Below are positions 1,166 through 54,011 of a stretch of 64,000 bases of DNA, in pieces. Position numbers and translations under genes: made by a program. The stretch is taken from assembly GCA_963666565.1 (NCBI GenBank), contig OY762911.1, positions 3,968,001 to 4,032,000 of the forward strand, read 5' to 3'. How positions within the stretch are numbered: the first letter of the stretch is position 1; every line of letters starts with the position of its first letter. This stretch comes from Thermoanaerobaculia bacterium (GTDB lineage: Bacteria; Acidobacteriota; Thermoanaerobaculia; Multivoradales; Multivoraceae). Below the pieces are notes generated by a model. It saw nothing but the letters and a program-made list of their open reading frames with translations, did not search any database and was not told the DNA's origin.

Positions 1166-3205
<2,040 letters not shown>

Positions 3206-3475
3206 CTGAGCTTCCATGACATAGGCAGCGTCATGGCCGCCAACCGAGCGAACCTCCGCGAACTGACGAACCCCAGGCGTAACCCGAGACCACCTCCCCG
3301 CGTTGCGCCTGCCGCCCACAGATCGGGGCCGCGCCGCTGTAGTACGCTGAGTCAAAGTGGTTGATCCTGCGGGAGCAGATGCAGCAGGATGGGACCCTAA
3401 AGTCACGCTGCGACGGGGCTGACTAGCGCCCGCAGCGACCATGAGAACAAGACCTACCGGGAAGCACTACCGGAA

Positions 3476-4675
3476 ATGAGACGATCCTCACTCCTACTGA
3501 TCCACACTCTTCTCATCGCTTCGGCCCTATCCGGTCAGACGTTCACGGTAGACGGTGCGGGGGCCGGTCCCGTCGAGCTGCCACAGCCCCTGACAGATGG
3601 GCAGTGGTTCGCCGAACTCGAGAGCTTCAATGAGTCGCGCGACCTCTCTCCCTATCTCCCCACTAGCCAACGCTGTTCCGAACCTGAACCACGTTTCGCT
3701 ATCGAGTCGAAGGTCTACAGAGTCACGGAGGGCCTTACTCGGACCGAACACCATCTTGGGGGTGCGTTCACTGTCGGAGTACGGGGATTTCCTGCCGGTT
3801 CAACCCAAGTACAGGTACGGGATTCGCTAACCACCTCGCCCGACCCATCCGCTGACCCGGACTGGCGATGGACTCTCAGATTCACGAAAGACGGCACACC
3901 TAAACCTCCTACGAAGGATGGGGACACGTTCGTGGTTCACGGCAGGGGGTCACCGCTTCAGGTAGCCCTGCCCGTACCACTAACTGAAGGCATGTACCGG
4001 GTAGACCTCCAGACCTACAAGGACGGTCGGCCGTTCGGAGTCTACGTAGCCGGCGGCGACTTCTACTTGAGCTCGGACAGGGTGCAATACTGCCGTGTTG
4101 TACGTGGCATTGACAACCGCGCTCGAATCCACGTCGGCCGCGACGTCGTCGCTGGTGCAGCGTTTCTACTCCCTAGGCAGATTCGACCCGACGTACTATG
4201 GAGCGTCCGCTTCACGAAGGATGGTACGCCGCTACTGCCTGATCCTCCTTCTCCACCGGAGGACTGTCCGAACGACAGCGTCTGCGAAGCGCCGCTCCCG
4301 GAATCTCCAGAACCTCCGCCCTCGGACGACATTTGCCCGGCCACTCGCGCCTGCTTGAACCAAGCGAAGTTCTGGGTAAGCGTGGACTACTACGAGGGTT
4401 ACTGGAAGACGGCCACGGTACTCAAGGAAGCGAACCTCCCGGACACCGCCGCCCTTTTCTGGTTCTACGACCCGAACAACCCTGAGCTTCTAGTCAAGGT
4501 TCTGAACGGCTGCGGAATCAACGGCCACTGGTGGGTATACGGTTCCGCCGCCACTGATAGGGACTATGAAGTAACCGTGCGACGACCAAACCAAACAGGT
4601 CTTCGGTTCCGCCGAATCTCGCCCGCTGTTCCGATAGCCTACACAACAGGAATTCCTTGCCTCAACGAAGAGTAG
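3476..4675 (+). CDS. Exported hypothetical protein with two internal repeats, a Pro-rich linker and a Cys-containing C-terminal domain
   Basis: Signal-peptide-like N-terminus. Repeats TFxVxG..LPxPLTxG ... WxxRFTKDGTP. C-terminal LFWFYDPNNPELLVKVLNGCGINGHWWV. Visibly lower GC than the flanks. Confidence 0.75.
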   Translation: MRRSSLLLIHTLLIASALSGQTFTVDGAGAGPVELPQPLTDGQWFAELESFNESRDLSPYLPTSQRCSEPEPRFAIESKVYRVTEGLTRTEHHLGGAFTVGVRGFPAGSTQVQVRDSLTTSPDPSADPDWRWTLRFTKDGTPKPPTKDGDTFVVHGRGSPLQVALPVPLTEGMYRVDLQTYKDGRPFGVYVAGGDFYLSSDRVQYCRVVRGIDNRARIHVGRDVVAGAAFLLPRQIRPDVLWSVRFTKDGTPLLPDPPSPPEDCPNDSVCEAPLPESPEPPPSDDICPATRACLNQAKFWVSVDYYEGYWKTATVLKEANLPDTAALFWFYDPNNPELLVKVLNGCGINGHWWVYGSAATDRDYEVTVRRPNQTGLRFRRISPAVPIAYTTGIPCLNEE

Positions 4676-44299: not shown

Positions 44300-46771
44300 C
44301 TAGCTCTTCTTGATGCCACGCCCGGTTGCGCCGTCCGGTGGCGTGTCGCGAAGGACCCCGGCGCGTTCCAGCTCGTCGACCCGCGCGTCGTCGAAGCCCA
44401 GGACCTCGACCAGGACGTCCCGGTTGTGCTCGCCGAGGCACGGGGCGCCGCGCCGGTAGGTCGCCGGCGTGGCGCTCAGGCGGATGGGCAGACCCGGGTA
44501 GCGGCGACGGCCGACTTCCGGGTGGTCTACCTCGGCCCAGAAACCGCGAGCCTCAAGGAACGGGCTCTCTGCGAGGTCGCGGCCATCGGCGACCGGCGCC
44601 GCGGTCACGTCCACTCGATGCAGGCGTTCCGCCAGAGCGTCGCGCTCCTGGCCGCGGGTCCAGTCCGCCAGCAGGTCGTCGATCCGGTCCTCCTCCGCCC
44701 GGCGCTCCTCGAGCGACAGCGAGGCGAGCGACGCTTCCAGGCCGCCGAGGCCGCACAGCGCCCGCCACTGCCGGTCGTCCTCGACGCTGATCGCAACCCA
44801 GCGGTCATCGCCGCGACACGGATAGCAGCCCTGGGGCGCGCGCCGCGGATGGCGGTTGCCGCGCCGCGGTTCGGCGGCGCCACGAAGCTGCGCGGTCAGG
44901 ATGCTGTCGCCGAAGGTCGTCGCCGTCGCTTCGACCATGGGGGTTTCGACCGTCCCGCCGGCGCCTTCCGGCGAACGGGAGCGCCGGTACAGCATGGCCA
45001 GCGTTCCGACGGCGGTGTGGAGCGCGGTTACCGGATCCGGCCAGGCGACGCCGGACCGGCACGGCGGACCGCCGCGGTAGCCGATGTGGGAGGTCAGACC
45101 CATGGACGCCTCGATCAACGGACCGTAGGCCAGCCGGTCGCGGTAGGGCCCCGAATGGCCGAAACCCGGCATCGCGACCGCGACCAGCCGTGGATTGATC
45201 TCGCGCAGCCGATCCGCGTCGAGCCCCAGCTTCGGCATGACCCGCGGACTGAAGTTGTCGCAAACGACGTCCGCCCGCTCGACCAACCTCTCGAACAGCC
45301 GCTTCGCCTCGGGATCGTTCAGCTCGAGGGTGAGCGACCGCTTGTTGCGGTTCATCTTGTTGAACGCCGCGCTCCGGTTGAACGGCCGCTCGCCGACCTC
45401 GTCCTCCGGAAACAGGTGGCTCAGCGCCCCGTCGCGGGCAGGCCGCGTGGCCGGACCGCGCGACCACGCCGCCTCGACCTTGATCACGTCGGCCCCGAGG
45501 TCGCCCAGGATGCGGGTCGCCAGCGGCCCCGCCCACACCCGGGTCAGGTCGAGAACGCGAACGCCCTGGAGTGGGCCGTGGTCGAGCGTCCCGTCACCCT
45601 CGCGCGTCGCGCCGGCCGACGGCGGCCATGCCGGGGCTTCGTCGAGGAGCGGCGCCGGCCCGACAACCGCCTCGTCCAGCGCAAGCGCCGGCGCCTTACC
45701 GTCGAGCACGAACGGTCCGCGGGGCACGAGCGGCCCGTCGCCGCCGTCGATCGGCACGAAGAACTCCCGCGCCCGGAAGTGCGGATCCTCGAGCACGCGC
45801 AGCGCGTCGTGGATCGGACCGATCGGCACCCGCGCCCGCACGCCCAACTCGATGATCTCCGCCGTCGTGTGCGCCATGAGCCATGGCTCGATCGCGCGGT
45901 CGAACTCGAGCCGGTGGTGCGCGCGGTCGACGTCCCGGACGAAGCGCGGATCCTCCGCCACCGCGTCGAGACCGGCGGCCGCGAGGAAGGGCCGGACCAT
46001 CTCCCAGCTCGGCATCGCCAGGAACACGTACCCGTCCTTGCACCGGTAGACGCCGATCGGGTGCCAGGGGCCGCCCTGCGTGTTGCCGACGCGGGGGAGC
46101 ACGTGCCGGGCCTGCGTCCACATGACCGTCGTGTACTGGTGCATCGCGGCGAGGCCCTCGACGTGGGACACGTCGACCGTCTGGCCGCGGCCGATCCGGG
46201 AGCGCGCCAGGAGCGCGGCCAGCCCGCCGATCGCCGCGTGCGCTCCCGCCTGGCAGTGCGCGTGGAGGCCGGGCCGCGCGATCGGCGCCCGGTCCGCCCT
46301 GCCGTTGAGGAAGGTGTGACCCGACCACGCGTCGTCGGTGAACTCGTTCGATCGAGGCGGGCCCGTCTCGCGCCAGAGGTCGCCCGCACCGGCCCCCAAC
46401 CCGAACGGCGAGATACGCAACAGCACGGCGCGCGGCGCATCGGCCTCGTCGATCAGAGGTTCAAGCGGACCCGGAGCGGAACTCTCGACGATCACGTCAG
46501 CGCCCAAGCGCTCGACCAGCTCCAGGACCTGCGCCCGACCCTCGTCCGTACTCGGCCGCAGCCGCGCCGCCCGCTTGCCCAGGTTGAGGTACGCGTACTC
46601 CGCCCCGACGCCCCGCCAGCGCTCTCCCACCTCCCGCCACGGATCGCCCCCCGCCGGCTCGATCCGCAGCACTTCCGCGCCGCAGGCGGCGAAGAGACGG
46701 CCCGCGTAGGCGCCCGCCGGCGAACCGGCGACTTCGATCGCGCGCAGACCGGAGCAGGGAGGATCGGCCAC
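44300..46771 (-). CDS. Family III CoA-transferase with two fused CaiB/BaiF domains
   Basis: Two repeats: GAEVLRIEP..GDP/YLNLGKR and GPLQGVRVLDL..WAGP..DLGADVIKVE/NRNKRS. Confidence 0.9.
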   Translation of the reverse strand: MADPPCSGLRAIEVAGSPAGAYAGRLFAACGAEVLRIEPAGGDPWREVGERWRGVGAEYAYLNLGKRAARLRPSTDEGRAQVLELVERLGADVIVESSAPGPLEPLIDEADAPRAVLLRISPFGLGAGAGDLWRETGPPRSNEFTDDAWSGHTFLNGRADRAPIARPGLHAHCQAGAHAAIGGLAALLARSRIGRGQTVDVSHVEGLAAMHQYTTVMWTQARHVLPRVGNTQGGPWHPIGVYRCKDGYVFLAMPSWEMVRPFLAAAGLDAVAEDPRFVRDVDRAHHRLEFDRAIEPWLMAHTTAEIIELGVRARVPIGPIHDALRVLEDPHFRAREFFVPIDGGDGPLVPRGPFVLDGKAPALALDEAVVGPAPLLDEAPAWPPSAGATREGDGTLDHGPLQGVRVLDLTRVWAGPLATRILGDLGADVIKVEAAWSRGPATRPARDGALSHLFPEDEVGERPFNRSAAFNKMNRNKRSLTLELNDPEAKRLFERLVERADVVCDNFSPRVMPKLGLDADRLREINPRLVAVAMPGFGHSGPYRDRLAYGPLIEASMGLTSHIGYRGGPPCRSGVAWPDPVTALHTAVGTLAMLYRRSRSPEGAGGTVETPMVEATATTFGDSILTAQLRGAAEPRRGNRHPRRAPQGCYPCRGDDRWVAISVEDDRQWRALCGLGGLEASLASLSLEERRAEEDRIDDLLADWTRGQERDALAERLHRVDVTAAPVADGRDLAESPFLEARGFWAEVDHPEVGRRRYPGLPIRLSATPATYRRGAPCLGEHNRDVLVEVLGFDDARVDELERAGVLRDTPPDGATGRGIKKS

Positions 46772-46808
46772 CGGACCGGCACGCTAGCAGTGTTCGCGCT
46801 GGTTCTCC

Positions 46809-46994
46809 GCGTGCGCGGGTCCTCCGACCCGCCGCCGCCGAAGGCGGCCGCAAGACGCGCCGGTCGCCAAGCCGGCTCTGCTTGGGCTGGCGCCTCCCCT
46901 GGCGCGGTCGCCGGCCTTCAGCCGGCGGCCCTGTCGTCCGGTCTGCACCGCTCCGCGGCGCCGCCCGCGCGCGGGTCGGAAGACCCGCGCACCC
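46809..46994. repeat. Inverted pair of REP-like copies (REPIN-like doublet) overlapping the metF 3' end
   Basis: Plus-strand copy at 46809-46832 and minus-strand copy at 46971-46994. The metF stop (46918-46920) lies between them. Confidence 0.8.
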
Positions 46995-48762
46995 AGCGAC
47001 GGCGATCTTCCGGGGTAGCGGCCGCTTCCAGCAAGTAGGCCAGCAGGTCGCCTTCGACGTAGTCGTTGTCGACGACGTTGACCAGGAAGTAGCTGTCGTG
47101 GATGCTCTGCAGCAGGCGCCGCGACTCGCTGCCCTCCTCGTACACGGCCGCCCAGGAGGTCAGCCAGAGATCGAGGGCCTCGTCCTTCCAGACCTCGAAC
47201 GAGCGGGGATCGACGATCGTCGGCTGGCGGATCTCCCGCCCCGGGAAGACGCCCCACGTCACCGCGTTCACCGCCTCGCTGTTGCTGTACGCGGCGCCGG
47301 CGCGGTCGATCGCGTGGTAAGTCAGGCTCGGGTTGGCGTCCAGGGCCGCCAGCAGCGGAGGCAGTTGCTCCGGCGCGACGAAGAACTCCAGGTACGCCTT
47401 CTGGTACACGCGGCCGCCGGCGCCGCCCCAGCCGACCGCGGGATCGTCGGACGGCGCGCCGTTCACGCGCGGCTGCGAGTTGATCGTCAGCAGCCCCGCC
47501 AGATTGAGCCGCACCAGGGCGTCGCGCAGCGGTTCGCTCTCCAGTTCGAGCGGCCAGTCGTACCAGGGGATCCCGTCCACGTCGCCCCGGCAGAAGCCGG
47601 CGAAAACCTCCCGGACCTGGTCGATCGAACTCAGTTCGCGCCCCCACCGATCGCGAGCCACCTCGGGCTTCACCGGGCGGAAGGCCAGGTGATGATCGGC
47701 GAGGTCGCCGAACGCCGGCGAGCCCGAGTCGCCCCAGCGGCCGTTGGGGAACTCGTCCCAGTCCCGGGTCCGGGCCAGGTAACTCTTCGGCCGGTTGGCC
47801 CAGAAGATCGGGCGGACATCCTCCCTGGGGCGCTGAACCGCCGTCGCGCTGCGCCATGGCAGGACCCTCTCCGTGCGCTCCGGCACGATGCCGAGGCGGT
47901 CGAGGATGACCTGAACCGAGCGCTCGAGGTTCAGGGTGTAGAAGTGAAGGCCGGGGGCGCCGCCGTCGAGCAGGCGGCGGCAGATGCCGGTCAACAGATT
48001 CTGGCCGTACTCGCGCACCGAGGCGTCGTGGTAGCGGCGCGCCTCGATCTCGCCGGCGATCTCGGGCGGCGCGCTGGCCCCGAAGCCCGTGATGCGCTGA
48101 AAGGACTGATAGCCGTTGATGGGCGCCAGTCCGGGAACGATCGGACAGTCGACGCCTCGTTCCCGGCACTCCTCCAGGAAGCGGAAGTAGAGCTCCGGTT
48201 CGTAGAACATCTGCGTGATCACGAAATCGGCGCCCGTCTCCACCTTGGCGGCCAGATGGTCGAGATCGCGCTCCCGGCTCGGCGCCTCCGGGTGACCTTC
48301 CGGGTAGCCGCCGACGCAGATCCCGAAGTGGTCGCCATGCTCCTCGCGGATGAAGCGCACCAGGTCCGAGGCGTGCGAGAAGCCGTCGGCGATCGGCGAC
48401 CAGGCCCCGCGGCCGCGGGGCGGATCGCCGCGCAGCGCCAGGATGTTGCCGATGCCGCGCGCGCGGCAGTCGTCCAGCACCGCCGCGATCCGGCGTCGCG
48501 GCATGTTGGTGCAGGTCAGGTGCATCATCGTTTCGATACCCAGCACGTTCTCGATCGTGTTCGCCAGCTCGAAGGTCAGCTTGGCCGTGCTGCCCCCGGC
48601 GCCCCAGGTGACGTCGACGAACGCCGGTTCCAGCCGCCCCATGCGCTCGATGCGCGCATAGAGATTCTCGATCCCGGCCTCCGTCTTGGGCGGGAAGTAC
48701 TCGAACGAGTAGAAGGGCCGCCCCTCGGCGATCGCCGAGCGCAACTTGTCGATCAGCTTCAC
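46918..48762 (-). CDS. metF: Methylenetetrahydrofolate reductase, eukaryote-type two-domain form
   Basis: FEYFPPKT, DVTWGAGG, MHLTC, LALRGD, ITQMFY, HFYTLN. C-terminal EDVRPIFW..WDEFPNGRWG, TINSQP, YQKAYLEFF, AVTWGVFPGREI.QPT.VD. Confidence 0.95.
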   Translation of the reverse strand: MKLIDKLRSAIAEGRPFYSFEYFPPKTEAGIENLYARIERMGRLEPAFVDVTWGAGGSTAKLTFELANTIENVLGIETMMHLTCTNMPRRRIAAVLDDCRARGIGNILALRGDPPRGRGAWSPIADGFSHASDLVRFIREEHGDHFGICVGGYPEGHPEAPSRERDLDHLAAKVETGADFVITQMFYEPELYFRFLEECRERGVDCPIVPGLAPINGYQSFQRITGFGASAPPEIAGEIEARRYHDASVREYGQNLLTGICRRLLDGGAPGLHFYTLNLERSVQVILDRLGIVPERTERVLPWRSATAVQRPREDVRPIFWANRPKSYLARTRDWDEFPNGRWGDSGSPAFGDLADHHLAFRPVKPEVARDRWGRELSSIDQVREVFAGFCRGDVDGIPWYDWPLELESEPLRDALVRLNLAGLLTINSQPRVNGAPSDDPAVGWGGAGGRVYQKAYLEFFVAPEQLPPLLAALDANPSLTYHAIDRAGAAYSNSEAVNAVTWGVFPGREIRQPTIVDPRSFEVWKDEALDLWLTSWAAVYEEGSESRRLLQSIHDSYFLVNVVDNDYVEGDLLAYLLEAAATPEDRRRWVRGSSDPRAGGAAERCRPDDRAAG

Positions 48763-48774
48763 GGCGAGCGGATC

Positions 48775-49662
48775 CTACGCCGAGTCCGCCGCCACGCGGT
48801 CCGCCTGCTGGACCAGGCCGGTCGCCGCCAGCCGTCCAGCCACAGCCTCCAGCTCGGGCCGCGGGCCCCGCCAGCGGAGTTCGTCGACGGAAGCGCTGAC
48901 CGGCGCGTCGCGGACCAGGGTCGCGAGCTGCCGGAACAGCTCCGCCGACGCCCGCTCCTCGCGGAGCGTCGCCGCCAGGCGGTCCCGTCCGCGCACCTTG
49001 ACCGTCCATTTCCAGGGCTGGTCCGGAATCTCCTCCAGGTGGAGGTAGTGGGCGAGGACCGTCGCCGTCGACTTGGCGCCCCAGCCGCGAAGACCCGGGA
49101 AACCGTCGGCGCTGTCGCCGACCAGCGCCAGGTAGTCGGGTATCGACTCCGGTTCGACGCCGAACTTCTCGCGGATGCCGTCGGCGTCCCAGCGCAGGCC
49201 GCGCCGCCGGTCGACCTGGATCGTCTTGCCGCCTCGGCCGGCGTCGACGCACTGAGCCAGGTCCTTGTCGGGCGTGCAGATGCGGACCTCGACGACCCGC
49301 TCGTCCGCGGCCGCCATCGCGGCGCCGCTGGCAAGCCCGTCGTCCGCCTCGTGCTCGACCATCGGCCAGACCGCGACCCCGAGCGCGGCCAGGGCCTCCT
49401 CGAGCACCGGGAACTGGGCCAGCAATTCCGGCTCGATCCCCTCGCCCGTCTTGTAGCCGGGCCACATCTCGTTGCGGAACGACTCGATCACGTGGTCGGT
49501 CGCCACCGCCACGTGGGTCGCGCCGTCGCGGAACATGCCGAGCACGGAGAAGACGACTCCACGCACCGCTCCGACCTCGAGCCCGTCGTCGTTCACGTAG
49601 CTCGGCGCTCCGAAGTGGTGGCGGAAGAGCTCGTAGGTGCCGTCGATCAGATGAACGTACAT
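48775..49662 (-). CDS. Stand-alone 5'-3' exonuclease / flap endonuclease (PolA N-terminal-like)
   Basis: LIDG, FRNE..PGYK, EADD, TPDKDL.Q, LVGDSADG.PG..G.GAK. Confidence 0.92.
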   Translation of the reverse strand: MYVHLIDGTYELFRHHFGAPSYVNDDGLEVGAVRGVVFSVLGMFRDGATHVAVATDHVIESFRNEMWPGYKTGEGIEPELLAQFPVLEEALAALGVAVWPMVEHEADDGLASGAAMAAADERVVEVRICTPDKDLAQCVDAGRGGKTIQVDRRRGLRWDADGIREKFGVEPESIPDYLALVGDSADGFPGLRGWGAKSTATVLAHYLHLEEIPDQPWKWTVKVRGRDRLAATLREERASAELFRQLATLVRDAPVSASVDELRWRGPRPELEAVAGRLAATGLVQQADRVAADSA

Positions 49663-49710
49663 GGCGGACGCCGGGCGCCGGACAACGCGGGCAAGCTACC
49701 ATCAGCCGCC

Positions 49711-51492
49711 ATGATCCGGTTCGCCGCCCTGCTATGGACCGTAACCGCGGCCGCGGCGCAGCCCGCGGCGGCCGCAGGCGACATGCCCGGCGACCCGCTG
49801 ACCGGCTCGGGCGAGGTCGCGCGGACGCTGCTTCCGGCAGCCCGGCTCCTGGCCGGCGAGTTCCCGGCCCCGGTCGACAACGCGGCCTTCGCCCTGCCGG
49901 AGAACGCCGCGCCGCCCCGCCACGAGATGCGCGGCACGTTGCAGCTCTTCGGCGGCGGCGGGGCCTCCTGGACCGTCCACCACGACACCTACCTGCGGGC
50001 GGACGAACCGCCGATCGTCTCCGCCCTGCGCCGCATTCCGCGGCTCGACGTCGTCCTGGTCCAGAGCGGCTCCTACCTGATTCCCGCCAACCGCGCGCTC
50101 CGCTACACCGGCGACGCCTACTGGAACGTCATCGTCGGACCGGGCCGGATCTGGAGCGAGAACGGCGACGGCGGCAGGAGCCGGGCCTCGCTGCCGGTCA
50201 CCCTGGTCGAGCGCAACCAGAACTGCGCCTACCACGGCGTCGTGACCTTCCTCTTCGACGGCGCCTCCACCTCGCCCGCCGCCTTCCAGGCCACCCAGGA
50301 GACCTGCAAGTACTTCAAGTTCGACCTCTGGGACGCGGGCCCCACCCGCTTCGCCGCCGGCGAGCCGCCCGAGGCGGCCGCTCTACTCGCCGCCTACGCC
50401 GCCGAGGCGGCCTCCCGGCTGCCGGTCCGGCCGATCGACCGGATTCGGGACGACTACCCGCGCGCCCAGGTCTACCCGCGGGCGTTCGGCGGCGGCTTCG
50501 ACCGCGAGCACCTCACCGCCTTCGGCGTCTCCTTCGGCGGAGTCCACTACCAGGGTCCGGTGCACACGCGCCACGGCGACTATCCCTATCCCGAGCAGAT
50601 CCGGCTGCCCTCGTATTCCACCGCCAAGACCGCGGTCGGCGCCGTCGCGCTGATGCGGCTGGCGCAGCGGGACGGCTTCGAGGTGACCGAACTCGAGCTC
50701 CGGGACTACGTGCCCAGGCCGCCCCGGGGCAGCTTCCGCGGAGTGACGTTCGAGCACGCGCTCGACATGGCGACCGGCCACTACTGGGACACGGGCAACC
50801 AGGACGACGAGAAGAACTCGACGACCGAGCTGAACTTCTTCGTGCCGGAGCACCGGAACCGCAAGCTGCGCGGCGCCCTCGCCTACCCGACGAGGGAGCC
50901 GCCCGGAGAGCGCTGGGTGTACCACACGACGGACGCCTTCCTGCTGTCCGTGGCGATGAGCGGGTACCTCGGGCAGGCGGCCGGGGCCTCGCCGAAGGAA
51001 CCCGCCGACCTGCTGGAGTTCCTGGCCGCCGAGGTCTACCGGCCGCTGGGCGTCTCCGCCGGGGCGCTCCAGTCGCTGCGCACGGACAACCGGGCCGACG
51101 GCTACGTCTTCGGCGGCTACGGCATGTTCTGGACCCCGGACGACATCCTGAAGATCGCCAACCTGCTGAACGTCCAGAGCGGCCGGATCGGCGACCGGCA
51201 GGTGCTCCATCCGGGCATGGTCGCCGCCGCGATGCAGGAAGACGAGGACGACCGCGGCCTGGACGCCGTCCACAACGGCCACCCGAACAAGTACAACAAC
51301 TCGGTCTGGTCGCGGCAGATCGAGGTCACCGACAGCGCCGCCGGCACGAAGCGGATCCGGGTACGGCAGATGCTCGGCTACGGCGGCATCGGCGTCCTCA
51401 TGCTGCCGAACGGCGCCGTCTTCTACTACTTCGGCGACAACGACCAGCACGACTGGCTGCGCTCCGCGCGGGAGGCCTACAAGCTCCGATGA
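49711..51492 (+). CDS. Exported serine hydrolase (beta-lactamase/PBP-like) with an N-terminal extra domain
   Basis: Signal peptide, SxxK (YSTAKT), LDMATG, PGERWVYHT, GYGG. Confidence 0.8.
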   Translation: MIRFAALLWTVTAAAAQPAAAAGDMPGDPLTGSGEVARTLLPAARLLAGEFPAPVDNAAFALPENAAPPRHEMRGTLQLFGGGGASWTVHHDTYLRADEPPIVSALRRIPRLDVVLVQSGSYLIPANRALRYTGDAYWNVIVGPGRIWSENGDGGRSRASLPVTLVERNQNCAYHGVVTFLFDGASTSPAAFQATQETCKYFKFDLWDAGPTRFAAGEPPEAAALLAAYAAEAASRLPVRPIDRIRDDYPRAQVYPRAFGGGFDREHLTAFGVSFGGVHYQGPVHTRHGDYPYPEQIRLPSYSTAKTAVGAVALMRLAQRDGFEVTELELRDYVPRPPRGSFRGVTFEHALDMATGHYWDTGNQDDEKNSTTELNFFVPEHRNRKLRGALAYPTREPPGERWVYHTTDAFLLSVAMSGYLGQAAGASPKEPADLLEFLAAEVYRPLGVSAGALQSLRTDNRADGYVFGGYGMFWTPDDILKIANLLNVQSGRIGDRQVLHPGMVAAAMQEDEDDRGLDAVHNGHPNKYNNSVWSRQIEVTDSAAGTKRIRVRQMLGYGGIGVLMLPNGAVFYYFGDNDQHDWLRSAREAYKLR

Positions 51493-54011
51493 CTCCACCG
51501 AACGCCCCGGAATCGGCGCCGGCGCCCTTCGCCGGCCTCAGGATCGTCGAACTGGCGGAGGGCGTCGCCGGCCCGTACTGCGGCAAGCTGCTCGCCGACC
51601 TGGGCGCCGACGTCGTCAAGGTCGAGCCGCCCGCGGGCGACGCCGCGCGCCGGGCGAACGGCGCCGACCCGACGACACCCGATCCGGCGAAGACTCCCGA
51701 CCCGGAAGGCTCGCCGCTCTTTCTCTACTGCAACACGAGCAAGCGCGGCATCGTCCTCGACCTGGACGACGCGGACGATCGCGCCGCCTTCGACGGCCTG
51801 CTCCGCACCGCCGACGCCCTGATCGTCGACCGCGAGCCGCCGGCGGGAACGCCGCCCGGCCCGGTCGTCGCGGCGGTCACGCCCTACGGCCTCTCGGGGC
51901 CGCGCGCCGGTGCGCCCGCCGGTGAACTCACGCTGACCCACGGCGGCGGACTGGTCAACCAGATGCCGGCCCGGTCCCGCGACATCGACCGCGCGCCGGT
52001 CGCCCTGGGCGGACACCAGGCCGGCTACCACGCCGGCCTCGTGACGGCGCTGGCGGTCGCCGCGGCGCTCCACGACCGCCGCGAAGGCGAGGCCGCCGAG
52101 CGAATCGACGTCTCGATCCAGGACGTCATGGTCGGCATGGTGGCGCCCCTCCTGGCCAGCGCCCGCTACCACGAGACGACCTGGTCGCGGGTGCCGGACC
52201 GCCCGCCCGCCATGGGCCGGCTCCGGACGAGCGACGGCTACGTCATCCTGAACGCCTTCGACGACCACCACTTCGAGCTCTTCCGCGAACTGATGGGCAA
52301 TCCGGACTGGTGCGAAGGCGACGAGTGGAAGGACATGGCCTACCGCAGCCATCACCTGATGGACATCGCCCCGCGGGTCGACGCCTGGGCGCTCGAACAG
52401 AAGCGCGACGACCTTTACCACCGCGCCGCCAGGCTGGGCATCCCGGTCGGTCCGATCCACGACGCCGCCGACGTGATGGCCTACGCGCAGTACGCGGCCC
52501 GCGACTACTTCGTCGAGGTCGATCATCCGCGCACCGGGCCGAAGCGCTACGCCGGCTGGCCGTACCGGATGGGCGCCTCACAGCCGCGCGTCTCGCGCCC
52601 GGCGCCGCTCCTCGGCGAGCACTCGGCGGAGATCCGGAGGGAACTGAACGGCGACGCCCTCGTCGGCGCCGGAACGCCGGTCGCCTTGGCCGGCGCCGGG
52701 ACGGCTGCCCCGTCGGACGCCGAAGCGGCCGACGCCGCGCGGACCGCGGTCGCCTCGTCGGGCCCCGACGACGCCGGCGTCCCCGCCGCGCGCAAGCTCC
52801 CGCTCGAAGGCATCCGCGTCGCCGAGTTCGCCTGGGTCTGGGCCGGTCCCTACGCCGGCGTCCTGCTCTCGACCCTGGGCGCCGAGGTCATCAAGGTCGA
52901 GGGGCCGAAGCGCCTCGACCTGACCCGCCGCTCGGTCGTCTGGCCCCGCGCCGAGGAGGCGCCGCGGAAGATCGGCCCGGACGCCGGCATGGCGTTCAAC
53001 ACGATGAACCTGAACAAGCGGTCGCTGGCGCTCGACCTGTCGCAGCGCGAGGGCCGCGAACTCGCCCTCCGCCTCGCCGGCCAGTGCGACGTGATCTACG
53101 ACAACATGCGCCCCGGCGCGATGGTCAAGCTCGGCCTGGACCACGAGACCCTGCGCCGGGCGAACCCGAGGCTCGTCGTCGCCTCGTCGTCGGGCCGCGG
53201 CCACGGCGGCCCCGAGACGGAGTACCTGGGCTACGCGATGGTCCACCAGGGCGTGGCCGGCGGCGCGTACATCTCCGGCTACCCGGACGACCACCCGACC
53301 CACAGCGGCGGCGACGTCGACCTGATGAACGCGGTCACGCTCGCCTTCTCGATCGTCGCGGCGCTCCATCACCGCGGGCGGACCGGCGAAGGCCAGTTCA
53401 TCGACTATTCGCAGTGCGAGGGCGTCAGCTCCATCCTCGGCGAGGTGCTCCTGGAGTACGAGATGACCGGCAAGGTTCCGGAGCGCAACGGCAACGCGCA
53501 CCGAAGTTCGGCGCCGCACGGCGTCTACCGCTGCTGGGGCATCGACCGCTGGCTCGCCATCGAAGTGCACGGCGACGAGGAGTTCGCCCGGCTCGCGGCG
53601 ACGATGAACCGGCCCGAACTGGCCGGAGACCCCCGCTTCGAGACCGCGGCCGCCAGGAAGCGGAACGAAGCCGAACTCGACGCGATCGTCGGCGCCTGGG
53701 CCCGGGAGCGGGACCGCGACTGGCTGGCCCGCGAACTCCTGGGCGCCGGAGTCGCCGCCGCCCCGTCCCGCGACGCCCGCGACCTCTACGCCGACTCCCA
53801 CCTGCGGGCCCGGGGCTCCTTCGCCACCGTCGAGCACCCGGAGTGGGGCGACCTGGAACTCGTCGGTCCGCCGTTCCGCATCGCGGGCCGCGATCTCGGC
53901 CCGCGCCGGGCGCCCCTGCTCGGCGAGCACACCGACGCCGTCCTCGCCGACGTCCTCGGCCTCTCCGCCGACGAGATCGCCGCCTGCCGCGACCGCGGCA
54001 TCGTCGCCTGA
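51489..54011 (+). CDS. Family III CoA-transferase with two fused CaiB/BaiF domains
   Basis: ATGA overlap. AGPYCGKLLADLGADVVKVE/NTSKR and WAGP..LGAEVIKVE/NLNKRS, with PLLGEH twice. Confidence 0.9.
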   Translation: MTPPNAPESAPAPFAGLRIVELAEGVAGPYCGKLLADLGADVVKVEPPAGDAARRANGADPTTPDPAKTPDPEGSPLFLYCNTSKRGIVLDLDDADDRAAFDGLLRTADALIVDREPPAGTPPGPVVAAVTPYGLSGPRAGAPAGELTLTHGGGLVNQMPARSRDIDRAPVALGGHQAGYHAGLVTALAVAAALHDRREGEAAERIDVSIQDVMVGMVAPLLASARYHETTWSRVPDRPPAMGRLRTSDGYVILNAFDDHHFELFRELMGNPDWCEGDEWKDMAYRSHHLMDIAPRVDAWALEQKRDDLYHRAARLGIPVGPIHDAADVMAYAQYAARDYFVEVDHPRTGPKRYAGWPYRMGASQPRVSRPAPLLGEHSAEIRRELNGDALVGAGTPVALAGAGTAAPSDAEAADAARTAVASSGPDDAGVPAARKLPLEGIRVAEFAWVWAGPYAGVLLSTLGAEVIKVEGPKRLDLTRRSVVWPRAEEAPRKIGPDAGMAFNTMNLNKRSLALDLSQREGRELALRLAGQCDVIYDNMRPGAMVKLGLDHETLRRANPRLVVASSSGRGHGGPETEYLGYAMVHQGVAGGAYISGYPDDHPTHSGGDVDLMNAVTLAFSIVAALHHRGRTGEGQFIDYSQCEGVSSILGEVLLEYEMTGKVPERNGNAHRSSAPHGVYRCWGIDRWLAIEVHGDEEFARLAATMNRPELAGDPRFETAAARKRNEAELDAIVGAWARERDRDWLARELLGAGVAAAPSRDARDLYADSHLRARGSFATVEHPEWGDLELVGPPFRIAGRDLGPRRAPLLGEHTDAVLADVLGLSADEIAACRDRGIVA

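What the first reader, a model, noticed from the sequence alone, without database searches (positions are those of the whole stretch)
46918..48762. Eukaryote-type MTHFR with a complete C-terminal SAM-regulatory domain in a bacterial chromosome
Seen: a 614-aa ORF whose catalytic barrel is followed by about 290 further residues containing EDVRPIFWANRPKSY..WDEFPNGRWGDS.SPAFG, TINSQP..NG..S.DP.VGWG...G.VYQKAYLEFF, NAVTWGVFPGREI.QPT.VD and YFLVN.VDNDY. Established: typical bacterial MetF is about 300 aa (barrel only), and these motifs characterise the linker and SAM-binding regulatory domain of animal, fungal and plant MTHFR. The N-terminus (MKLIDKL..FEYFPPKT..G.ENL; DVTWGAGGST; ETMMHLTCTNM) also resembles plant and fungal enzymes. 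The gene is intronless, GC-rich at third positions like its neighbours, abuts a bacterial exonuclease gene and carries a host REP-like copy, so contamination is unlikely. Inference: either an old eukaryote-to-bacterium transfer or a bacterial lineage related to the eukaryotic form, possibly giving allosteric SAM control of one-carbon flux in a bacterium.
Basis: partly seen in the sequence, partly recalled or inferred. Interest (0 to 1): 0.78.

Follow-up and report, generated by a model that had tools for sequence, protein, structure and literature searches.

The report
Two-domain SAM-sensing MTHFR in bacteria
A bacterium carries, as its only methylenetetrahydrofolate reductase, the two-part form with a SAM-binding regulatory domain that papers describe as found only in eukaryotes, so this regulatory design is not restricted to eukaryotes.

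Summary
ORF 46918-48762 (-), 614 aa, has an MTHFR barrel (PF02219, E 9e-104) and the MTHFR SAM-binding regulatory domain (PF21895, E 9e-96). It aligns end to end with fungal and human MTHFR structures (E 1e-179 and 1e-176). It is not contamination: the genome is one closed 4.79 Mb contig, GC3 matches the neighbours, a host REP hairpin (790 genome copies) sits in the gene's 3' end, and the gene is present in 22 of 24 genomes of the genus in conserved synteny. It is the genome's only MTHFR, whereas 35 of 36 genomes of sister families in the same order carry an ordinary one-domain MetF. All SAM-site contacts are conserved; the human Tyr-Tyr "plug" is His-His here. Two-domain copies occur patchily in several bacterial phyla and form two groups. 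The window's group is a solid bacterial clade next to or inside eukaryotes, and the other group is basal. AU tests reject none of the deep alternatives, so the direction of bacterium-eukaryote exchange is open. Six papers read in passages call the domain eukaryote-only, and four searches found no report of bacterial copies. Verdict: a real, probably SAM-regulated enzyme and a new member of a known kind; SAM inhibition is untested.

The parts
46918..48762 (-). Whole gene: two-domain methylenetetrahydrofolate reductase, 614 aa, GTG start, TGA stop at 46918-46920
   Evidence: The start is conserved as GTG or ATG with the same MKLIDKL N-terminus in genus relatives.
47890..48747 (-). Catalytic FAD/folate TIM-barrel domain (aa 6-291). 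Human E63/D92/T94 correspond to E21/D50/T52.
   Evidence: PF02219 E 9.2e-104. The AF2 barrel superposes on Thermus MTHFR at TM 0.96, rmsd 1.6 A. E21/T52 are invariant and D50 nearly so in all 71 two-domain rows.
47665..47889 (-). Inter-domain linker (aa 292-366, equivalent to human 338-412). It holds L301-P302-W303, A322 (human A368), F338-PNGR-W343 (human F384-W389) and H357-H358-L359-A360 (human plug Y403-Y404-L405-F406).
   Evidence: Residue mapping through chain 8qa4_A, which carries native human numbering. Roles of the residues come from passages of PMC5995969 and PMC11018872. AF2 confidence is low at 298-320 and 332-350, as expected of a mobile linker.
47035..47868 (-). SAM/SAH-binding regulatory domain (Pfam match aa 299-576). 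Site-1 contacts are E408, S409, T426, S429, T502, T515.
   Evidence: PF21895 E 8.9e-96. The RD superposes on human 8qa4_A at TM 0.89, rmsd 1.4 A. The contacts are invariant in 37 of 37 bacterial rows, with S/T allowed at 409.
46921..46995 (-). Lineage-specific 25-aa C-terminal tail (aa 590-614), created by read-through of an inserted REP hairpin. Predicted disordered.
   Evidence: Genus relatives end '...DDRRRAEL*' or '...QADEPPSMTIVAPVT*'. The window follows the first type to 'EDRRR' and then diverges. None of 19 other genus loci has the hairpin near the stop. pLDDT is below 50 at 599-614.
46971..46988 (.). Host REP-like palindromic hairpin GCGGGTCGGAAGACCCGC, inside the ORF tail
   Evidence: The depth of public contigs spikes at 46804-47071, as expected of a multi-copy repeat.
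46815..46832 (.). Second REP-like hairpin, in the spacer between the MTHFR gene and the downstream CoA-transferase gene
48775..49662 (-). Context: upstream 5'-3' exonuclease gene, 12 nt from the MTHFR start, probably co-transcribed. This neighbour is conserved across the genus.
   Evidence: Pfam PF02739 + PF01367. An exonuclease homologue is found upstream in 35 of 36 genus-type loci. The junction is bridged without differences by contigs of 4 of 4 public runs.

Best explanation
The gene encodes a functional two-domain ('type 1', eukaryote-type) methylenetetrahydrofolate reductase. It is the only MTHFR of this Thermoanaerobaculia-like acidobacterium. It makes 5-methyl-THF for the B12-dependent methionine synthase MetH, feeding the MetK / methyltransferase / AhcY cycle. 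The C-terminal domain binds SAM and SAH in the same pocket as in human and fungal MTHFR, and the protein probably dimerises through that domain. Most likely, SAM binding moves the linker over the flavin site and inhibits the enzyme, and SAH relieves this. That would give the bacterium protein-level feedback control of one-carbon flux. The gene entered an ancestor of the genus by horizontal transfer, most likely from another bacterium of the same protein clade. It displaced the native one-domain MetF and has since been inherited vertically. Shown: domain identity, pocket conservation, sole copy, residency, displacement pattern, clade membership. Inferred: SAM binding (about 0.85), SAM inhibition (about 0.55), RD-mediated dimer (about 0.7), bacterial immediate donor (about 0.75).
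For: Architecture and full-length homology. The AF2 model (mean pLDDT 81.3) has as its best PDB matches the full-length fungal and human enzymes (E 5e-62 to 8e-53). Pocket: human P348, W349, A368, E463, T481, S484, T560, T573 are identical here (P302, W303, A322, E408, T426, S429, T502, T515), T464 is S409, and the site-2 motif FPNGRW is identical. These positions are invariant in 5 of 5 genus rows, 14 of 14 other group-1 rows and 18 of 18 group-2 rows. Sole MTHFR: one strong PF02219 hit in the closed genome; the second hit scores 20.7 bits, below the 24-bit cut-off. Pathway: MetH, MetK and AhcY are present and MetE was not found. Residency: one contig of 4,786,144 bases, 97.09% complete, 0.02% contamination; RD present in 22 of 24 other genomes of the genus; exonuclease neighbour in 35 of 36 genus-type loci; GC3 0.91; REP insertion; junction bridged in 4 of 4 runs, which come from one study and may include the source. 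Displacement: RD in 0 of 16 genomes of other genera of the order, and 35 of 36 non-genus genomes of the order have a one-domain MetF of about 300 aa. That MetF scores only 110-137 bits against this protein and lies on a long separate branch. Clade: genus 100/100; genus + P0009 98/86; group 1 (genus, three Myxococcota-labelled MAG copies, unlabelled metagenomic ORFs) 100/100. The catalytic-domain and RD trees agree. Dimer: complex prediction on two copies of residues 297-592 scored 0.63, best of 3 controls 0.00. That mark was reached by 20 of 30 proteins solved as pairs of one chain and by 1 of 23 solved as single chains. The runs agree in at least 58% of contacts and partner pLDDT is at least 73. 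Homologous dimers are solved, so this pass may come from memory and shows likeness only. The interface (495-517, 435/451/453, 564-569) overlaps the beta16 / central-sheet interface described for human MTHFR.
Against: No biochemistry exists for any bacterial copy. The human auto-inhibitory plug Y403-Y404-L-F406 is H357-H358-L-A360 here, and fungal Tyr361 aligns with H357. Tyr404Ala abolishes SAM inhibition in the human enzyme, so inhibition here is uncertain. However, His at the second position is the commonest residue among my eukaryote rows (15 of 27), and PMC11018872 says the plug sequence is not preserved in lower eukaryotes. From recall, plant enzymes keep the domain but are not SAM-inhibited. 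The loop 386-391 of the human dimer interface was not recovered in the predicted interface. No promoter, terminator or riboswitch was found, so the transcription unit is inferred only.
Confidence: 0.6

Rival explanations
1. The enzyme is active and the regulatory domain is kept, but only as a dimerisation scaffold or SAH/SAM-binding module. There is no feedback inhibition (a plant-like state), so one-carbon flux is not SAM-controlled at the protein level.
For: The plug residues differ from the experimentally validated human and fungal tyrosines. Plant MTHFR with the same architecture is, from recall, SAM-insensitive and NADH-dependent; NADH dependence is stated in PMC13001107. The window has A322-N323 ('FWANRP'), as in the majority consensus of my eukaryote alignment.
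Against: Every SAM-contacting residue of site 1 and the site-2 FPNGRW motif are invariant across 37 bacterial rows from distant phyla. That degree of conservation is hard to explain for a mere scaffold. The plug segment of the green lineage is Y/H-Q-F-[ML], unlike the H-H-L of the genus, which resembles the Y/H-H-L of Amoebozoa, glaucophyte and Rhizaria rows.
Confidence: 0.3
2. The genus acquired the gene directly and fairly recently from a eukaryote, for example a host or prey organism.
For: In the best tree the window's group 1 lies inside the eukaryote-containing clade (100/99), next to Amoebozoa. TIGR00677 'fadh2_euk' is passed.
Against: The nearest relatives of the genus are bacterial or unlabelled intronless sequences at 54-63% identity, within a 100/100 clade of 15 rows. 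The link to Amoebozoa has support of only 39/29. The composition is fully host-like. The gene is in 22 of 24 genomes of the genus in conserved synteny, so the acquisition predates the genus. The one sponge-labelled RD fragment groups with eukaryotes, away from the genus.
Confidence: 0.05
3. Assembly artefact: a eukaryotic contaminant or chimeric join placed a eukaryotic gene in a bacterial contig.
For: None beyond the eukaryote-like sequence itself.
Against: Single closed contig with 0.02% contamination. No introns. GC3 0.91 like the neighbours. A host REP element lies inside the gene. The same neighbours occur in 35 of 36 related genomes from many assemblies. The upstream junction is bridged with 0 differences in 4 of 4 runs.
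Confidence: 0.01

Closest known systems
Human MTHFR (PDB 6fcx, 8qa4-8qa6)
   Same: Same two-domain order, linker and RD fold. E 1.1e-176 over residues 3-577, 42-48% identity in Foldseek alignments. All site-1 SAM/SAH contacts and the FPNGRW site-2 motif are conserved. An RD-mediated dimer is predicted.
   Different: There is no N-terminal Ser-rich phosphorylation region, since the protein starts 5 residues before the barrel match. The plug YYLF is HHLA. It has a 25-aa REP-derived C-terminal tail. The host is a bacterium, and the gene has no introns and follows the preceding gene after 12 nt.
Chaetomium thermophilum MTHFR (PDB 8uy1 R state, 8uy2 T state)
   Same: Best PDB match: E 1.1e-179 over residues 5-581. 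It also lacks the phosphorylation region. [quoted passage not shown]
   Different: The occluding Tyr361 aligns with His357. The position of human A368 is Arg in the fungus and Ala here.
Plant MTHFR (e.g. Arabidopsis; rows Mangifera, Capsicum, Diphasiastrum in my trees)
   Same: Same architecture and the same 'EDVRPIFWANRPKSY' linker stretch. About 50-51% identity.
   Different: The plug segment is Y/H-Q-F-M in the green lineage and H-H-L-A here. Plants are NADH-dependent and, from recall, not SAM-inhibited. The window's cofactor preference and SAM response are unknown. The green lineage forms its own 100/100 clade away from the window's group.
Ordinary bacterial MetF (E. coli 1zp3, Thermus 1v93; TIGR00676)
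   Same: Homologous FAD TIM barrel. Thermus E 1e-68, E. coli E 3e-44. Barrel TM 0.87-0.96.
   Different: About 300 aa with no linker or RD, and it oligomerises through the barrel (passages of PMC13001107). The window protein falls below the TIGR00676 cut-off. The MetF of sister acidobacterial families scores only 110-137 bits against it.
DUF6919 (PF21897), a stand-alone bacterial relative of the RD
   Same: Distant similarity to part of the RD: 21.6 bits at residues 372-436. Pfam's authors describe it as sharing the fold and the pocket residues (PMC11701544 passage).
   Different: The match is below threshold (cut-off 27) and covers only 65 residues. DUF6919 is a stand-alone domain, and the window's genome has no separate copy.

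Membership tests
Two-domain ('type 1', eukaryote-type) MTHFR | N-terminal FAD-binding MTHFR TIM barrel with the conserved catalytic residues | tested here: met
   PF02219 E 9.2e-104 at 6-291. TIGR00677 scores 362 bits against a cut-off of 310. E21/D50/T52 correspond to human E63/D92/T94. Barrel TM 0.96 to Thermus MTHFR.
Two-domain ('type 1', eukaryote-type) MTHFR | C-terminal regulatory domain of the MTHFR_C fold in the same polypeptide | tested here: met
   PF21895 E 8.9e-96 at 299-576. TM 0.89, rmsd 1.4 A to the human RD 8qa4_A.
Two-domain ('type 1', eukaryote-type) MTHFR | SAM/SAH site-1 residues (human P348, W349, E463, T481, S484, T560, T573) and the site-2 motif F384PNGRW389 | tested here: met
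   All are identical in the window. They are invariant in 37 of 37 bacterial rows, except that F338 is Y in 3 rows and N340 is R in 1 row.
Two-domain ('type 1', eukaryote-type) MTHFR | Aromatic plug in linker segment LS3 that stacks on FAD in the inhibited state (human Tyr404, fungal Tyr361) | tested here: inconclusive
   H357-H358-L359-A360 replace Y403-Y404-L405-F406. His is common at the second position in eukaryotes (15 of 27 rows), and one glaucophyte row also has H-H-L. Whether His can act as the plug is not known.
Two-domain ('type 1', eukaryote-type) MTHFR | Homodimer through the regulatory domains | tested here: inconclusive
   The in-silico test passed: score 0.63, best control 0.00; 20 of 30 solved one-chain pairs and 1 of 23 single chains reach the mark; at least 58% of contacts agree; pLDDT at least 73. 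Homologous dimers are solved, so this shows likeness and is not a measurement.
Two-domain ('type 1', eukaryote-type) MTHFR | Slow allosteric inhibition by SAM, reversed by SAH | not testable with these tools
   Needs an enzyme assay.
Two-domain ('type 1', eukaryote-type) MTHFR | Restricted to eukaryotes (as stated in the literature) | tested here: not met
   The gene lies in a closed bacterial chromosome. It is also present in other Acidobacteriota, Marinimicrobia, Myxococcota-labelled, Oligoflexales-labelled and Eisenbacteria-labelled genomes. This 'feature' is a claim about distribution, not a property of the protein, so membership stands.
Ordinary bacterial MetF (NCBIfam TIGR00676 / PRK09432) | Score above the curated equivalog cut-off, about 300 aa, barrel only | tested here: not met
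   TIGR00676 scores 282.9 bits against a cut-off of 293.7. PRK09432 scores 164.5 against 382. The length is 614 aa.
DUF6919 (PF21897) | Score above the Pfam gathering threshold over the domain | tested here: not met
   21.6 bits against a cut-off of 27, covering profile positions 5-69 of 183 only.

The most novel reading that the evidence does not exclude
The two-domain, SAM-sensing MTHFR is not a eukaryotic invention. It arose in bacteria by fusion of a MetF barrel with a DUF6919-like SAM-binding domain, and eukaryotes received it from a bacterium before their radiation. The basal 'group 2' bacteria (a second acidobacterial family, Marinimicrobia, and Eisenbacteria- and Oligoflexales-labelled genomes), which even carry the human-like Y-Y-L-[LF] plug, would then be descendants of the original lineage. 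The window's group 1 would be either the closest living relatives of the donor or a later return transfer.
Probability: 0.3. Interest if true: 0.78.

Novelty: new member of a known kind. Interest (0 to 1): 0.62.

Why it matters
Structural and review papers up to 2026 state that the MTHFR regulatory domain and SAM feedback are eukaryote-only and that bacterial MTHFRs lack them (passages read). This locus shows a bacterium that relies solely on the two-domain form. My searches show that the form is scattered over several bacterial phyla and always appears as the only MTHFR (5 of 5 further genomes checked). This matters in three ways. First, it corrects a standing generalisation and reopens the question of where the domain came from. 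The rooted trees put bacterial lineages at the base of the two-domain clade, but not decisively. Second, it offers intronless bacterial enzymes without the phosphorylation region as simple models for the SAM/SAH switch. These include natural plug variants: His-His here and Tyr-Tyr in group 2. Third, it suggests that some bacteria control methyl-group supply by protein allostery and not, or not only, by SAM riboswitches or MetJ-type repression. No riboswitch was found in the window.

Tried and rejected
Contamination or chimera: rejected.

A second MTHFR in the genome: the only other PF02219 hit is a 723-aa ORF scoring 20.7 bits, below the 24-bit cut-off. I did not count it.

Stand-alone or split bacterial regulatory domains: a search for proteins of 336 aa or fewer with the RD gave 1384 hits, of which the best 120 were listed. 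I read 10 of these. The nine of about 289-307 aa, on contigs of 26-236 kb, closely resemble the fungal chain and end abruptly after '...LINIG'. I read them as exons of fungal genes called by a prokaryotic gene finder, not as bacterial stand-alone domains. The remaining 110 were not inspected.

DUF6919 in the genome: the only hit is the weak one inside the MTHFR itself.

Riboswitch or other RNA: 0 Rfam matches in the window. Promoter and terminator consensus scans at 46500-50200 found 0 and 0.

Direction of transfer is not resolved. Eukaryotes held as one clade: lnL 12.7 lower, p-AU 0.125 (PMSF model). All bacterial two-domain rows held as one clade: lnL 32.1 lower, p-AU 0.143. Group 2 held as one clade: lnL 22.6 lower, p-AU 0.173 (LG+F+G4, fast constrained searches, P0061 left free).

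Rows dropped: for the careful tree I left out 23 of the 82 rows to save time. These were near-duplicates plus the long-branch row L078, and they are listed in the script. My full-length eukaryote sample has no opisthokonts, alveolates or excavates. Four opisthokont-like RD fragments were added only to the quick RD tree. Seventeen rows of the careful tree are unlabelled.

Expression: no RNA holder was listed.

3' junction: Logan contigs break at the REP copies. One contig (X2 record 12, 46814-47000) spans the stop codon, and I saw no single listed piece across 46840-46972 in X1 or X3. I treat this as a repeat effect.

Literature: searches for bacterial two-domain MTHFR found nothing relevant. 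A search for 'Candidatus Multivorans' found 0 papers and one for 'DUF6919' found 2.

The alignments and sequence lists of PMC5995969 (Supplementary Figs 13, 15) and PMC11868366 (Supplementary Data 4, 60 MTHFRs) might contain bacterial two-domain sequences, and I could not see them.

Full report
**1. The observation**

The window holds an open frame at 46918-48762 on the minus strand (614 aa, GTG start). Pfam splits it into the MTHFR barrel and the regulatory domain:
- PF02219, residues 6-291, E 9.2e-104.
- PF21895 'MTHFR, SAM-binding regulatory domain', residues 299-576, E 8.9e-96, nearly the whole profile.

NCBIfam's eukaryotic equivalog TIGR00677 is passed (362 bits, cut-off 310). The bacterial equivalog TIGR00676 is not (283 bits, cut-off 293.7). 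Against solved structures the protein aligns end to end with Chaetomium thermophilum MTHFR (8uy1, E 1.1e-179, residues 5-581) and human MTHFR (6fcx/8qa4, E 1.1e-176). One-domain enzymes match only the first 296 residues (Thermus E 1e-68, E. coli E 3e-44).

An AlphaFold2 model built on a 45-row alignment is confident in both domains (mean pLDDT 81.3). Confidence is low only in linker stretches 298-320 and 332-350 and in the last 16 residues. Its best PDB matches are the full-length fungal and human enzymes (E 5e-62 to 8e-53). The RD alone fits human 8qa4_A at TM 0.89 and 1.4 A, and the barrel fits Thermus MTHFR at TM 0.96.

**2. It is a resident bacterial gene**

- The window lies in a genome of one contig, 4,786,144 bases, 97.09% complete, 0.02% contamination.
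- GC3 of the gene is 0.91 in both halves, against 0.83-0.94 in six neighbours.
- The upstream gene, 12 nt away, is a 5'-3' exonuclease. The downstream gene is a doubled CoA-transferase III.
- The palindromic hairpin GCGGGTC-N4-GACCCGC occurs 8 times in the window (0.10 expected) and 790 times in the genome (reversed control 0).
- One hairpin copy lies inside the 3' end of the gene. Genus relatives end '...DDRRRAEL*' or '...QADEPPSMTIVAPVT*'. The window's copy follows the first type up to 'EDRRR', then reads through the hairpin and gains 25 residues in place of 3. None of 19 other genus loci has the hairpin there. The tail is predicted disordered.
- Public contigs of four runs (three samples, one study, possibly including the source) bridge the exonuclease|MTHFR junction without a difference. 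At the 3' end they break at the repeats, where depth spikes.

**3. Who has it**

Related records name the lineage as Candidatus Multivorans / Thermoanaerobaculia, Acidobacteriota.

| Sample | Genomes with the RD |
|---|---|
| Other genomes of the window's genus | 22 of 24 (the two without are 86% and 95% complete) |
| Other genera of the same order | 0 of 16 |
| Phylum sample, counting the window's genome | 21 of 401: genus 9 of 9, second family 10 of 15, one genome of a third family |
| Marinimicrobia-centred sample | 4 of 201 |
| Myxococcales-labelled centre's phylum | 1 of 301 (the centre itself) |
| A small phylum around a 'Deltaproteobacteria' MAG | 3 of 6 |
| 14 well-known control genomes | 0 of 14 |

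- The exonuclease neighbour is found in 35 of 36 genus-type loci: within about 225 nt in 34 and 2.2 kb away in one. The CoA-transferase is found downstream in 22 of 36.
- In the same order, 35 of 36 non-genus genomes carry an ordinary MetF of about 300 aa (190-212 bits to PF02219). All 5 genus genomes searched, counting the window's, have only the two-domain form at about 350 bits.
- That native MetF scores only 110-137 bits against the window protein. The pattern is displacement of the native gene by an acquired one.
- Full-length copies also occur in Oligoflexales-labelled and Eisenbacteria-labelled MAGs.
- In five further genomes from these lineages the two-domain protein is the only PF02219 hit.

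**4. Phylogeny**

I built several trees:
- a quick full-length tree (73 rows);
- a quick catalytic-domain tree rooted on 11 one-domain enzymes (82 rows);
- quick RD trees;
- a careful full-length tree (59 rows, 600 columns, LG+C20+F+G4 PMSF, ultrafast bootstrap / SH-aLRT).

For the careful tree, 23 of the 82 rows were left out, as listed.

Robust results:
- All two-domain proteins form one clade against one-domain enzymes (100/99).
- The genus is one clade (100/100), with an unlabelled sequence (98/86) and, in the RD tree, a Holophagae-labelled fragment as nearest neighbours.
- The genus lies in 'group 1' (100/100, 15 rows) with three Myxococcota-labelled copies and unlabelled intronless ORFs.
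- Group 1 and all sampled eukaryotes form a clade (100/99).
- 'Group 2' lies outside that clade, as a weakly resolved basal grade. It holds the second acidobacterial family, Marinimicrobia, Eisenbacteria- and Oligoflexales-labelled copies and unlabelled rows.
- The barrel and RD trees agree, so the two domains travelled together.
- The two acidobacterial lineages carry different versions, which means at least two acquisitions within the phylum.

Not resolved:
- Whether group 1 is nested in eukaryotes. It is sister to Amoebozoa with support of only 39/29, and eukaryote monophyly is not rejected (p-AU 0.125).
- Whether all bacterial copies could form one clade (p-AU 0.143).
- Whether group 2 is monophyletic (p-AU 0.173).

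Caveats: there are no full-length opisthokonts, alveolates or excavates in the sample. The outgroup branches are long.

**5. Mechanism**

Chain 8qa4_A carries native human numbering, which allows a direct mapping. The roles of the residues come from passages of PMC5995969 and PMC11018872.

| Human residue(s) | Window residue(s) | Role |
|---|---|---|
| P348, W349 | P302, W303 | homocysteine end of the site-1 pocket (linker) |
| A368 | A322 | lies beside the SAM/SAH sulphur; would sense the extra methyl of SAM |
| F384-PNGR-W389 | F338-W343, identical | site-2 motif |
| E463 | E408 | essential for SAM binding |
| T464 | S409 | fixes the ribose hydroxyls |
| T481, S484 | T426, S429 | hydrogen-bond the adenine |
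| T560, T573 | T502, T515 | homocysteine end of the pocket |

Across 5 genus rows, 14 other group-1 rows and 18 group-2 rows these pocket positions are invariant, with S/T allowed at 409. FPNGRW is nearly invariant.

The auto-inhibitory plug differs. Human Y403-Y404-L-F406 is H357-H358-L-A360 in the genus, and fungal Tyr361 aligns with H357. Group 2 has Y-Y/H-L-[LIF], like human. Most protist rows have Y-H-L. The green lineage has Y/H-Q-F. PMC11018872 notes that the plug sequence is not preserved in lower eukaryotes, where other hydrophobic residues seem to serve.

A two-copy prediction of residues 297-592 passed. The score was 0.63 and the best of 3 controls 0.00. The mark was reached by 20 of 30 solved one-chain pairs and by 1 of 23 single chains. 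At least 58% of contacts agreed between runs, and partner pLDDT was at least 73. The interface overlaps the sheet/beta16 interface of human MTHFR. Homologous dimers are solved, so this shows likeness only.

The genome encodes MetH, MetK and AhcY, and MetE was not found. The enzyme must therefore supply methyl-THF to a complete methyl cycle.

I conclude that SAM/SAH binding is very likely and an RD-mediated dimer likely. SAM inhibition is somewhat more likely than not. The cofactor preference is unknown.

**6. Comparison with what is known**

The protein is a member of the two-domain ('type 1') MTHFR family on every sequence and fold criterion tested. It is not a member of the ordinary bacterial MetF equivalog.

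Passages I read in six papers state that the regulatory domain or the two-domain form is eukaryote-only, or typical only of eukaryotes, and that bacterial MTHFRs lack it:
- PMC5995969 (2018)
- PMC11868366 (2025)
- PMC13001107 (2026)
- PMC11701544 (2024)
- PMC11018872 (2024), abstract and passages
- PMC11183114 (2024)

The Pfam paper, cited by the 2026 review, points to stand-alone bacterial DUF6919 as a distant relative of the domain.

Four full-text searches found no report of bacterial two-domain MTHFR. Supplements could not be read. Public databases already label some of these bacterial proteins 'methylenetetrahydrofolate reductase' with both Pfam domains. The sequences are therefore known to databases but, as far as I could find, not discussed in print.

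**7. Verdict**

This is a real and interesting but not categorically new object: a new, bacterial member of a known enzyme kind that contradicts a repeated generalisation. The bold reading, that the SAM-sensing two-domain enzyme arose in bacteria and was passed to eukaryotes, is allowed by the rooted trees but not established (about 0.3).

Noticed in passing
window 1093, 29794, 46815, 46971, 54135, 54171, 55353, 56873 (18-nt matches); whole genome: A REP-like palindromic hairpin family, GCGGGTC-N4-GACCCGC, has 790 copies in the 4.79 Mb genome, often in tandem pairs or arrays 25-40 nt apart. The loops are mostly TTCC/GGAA, TTCT/AGAA or AGAG. I did not look for a RAYT-type transposase.
   Followed up: partly
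L078 (Myxococcota-labelled MAG), match 3001-3879: A one-domain MetF of about 305 aa falls inside two-domain group 1 next to two Myxococcota-labelled copies, on a very long branch (2.14). There is no RD within 3 kb downstream. It is either a secondary loss of the regulatory domain or long-branch attraction. I left it out of the careful tree.
   Followed up: partly
L074 (MAG labelled Winogradskyella), 6-1061: This partial two-domain MTHFR is nearly identical in its RD to a Marinimicrobia copy (L063; branch lengths 0.03 and 0.013). It is probably a mis-binned contig and not a Bacteroidota copy.
   Followed up: partly
G000:C1:608925-609386 (outside the window): The only MetH-type (PF02965) match lies in a 1297-aa open frame, covers only profile positions 101-260 and has one TGA inside the match. 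This could be a frameshift, a sequencing error or an alignment artefact.
   Followed up: no
window 44300-46771 (-) and 51495-54011 (+): Two paralogous genes, each encoding a doubled CoA-transferase family III protein (823 and 838 aa, two PF02515 stretches each), flank the exonuclease-MTHFR pair on opposite strands.
   Followed up: no
P0093, P0097, P0142 (oomycete proteins): Lagenidium, Pythium and Phytophthora records show MTHFR fused to a WD40-repeat region (857-907 aa). Other oomycete records are 587-591 aa. This is either a gene-model fusion or a real fusion.
   Followed up: no
L111 (G523, Marinimicrobia sample), RD match: One TAA lies inside the regulatory-domain match of an otherwise full-length copy. 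tblastn still aligns residues 1-579 in one frame. It may be a sequencing error or a pseudogene.
   Followed up: partly
window 46784-49702 (-), 46882-51492 (+), 44426-47038 (+): Very long open frames (870-1536 aa) overlap the real genes in other frames. They are by-products of the roughly 72% GC content, not genes, and a raw ORF list of this genome is misleading.
   Followed up: no
P0293, P0260, P0269 and similar: RD-only 'proteins' of 289-307 aa on long metagenomic contigs look like single exons of fungal MTHFR genes called by a prokaryotic gene finder. Database counts of 'stand-alone MTHFR_C' proteins are therefore probably inflated.
   Followed up: partly
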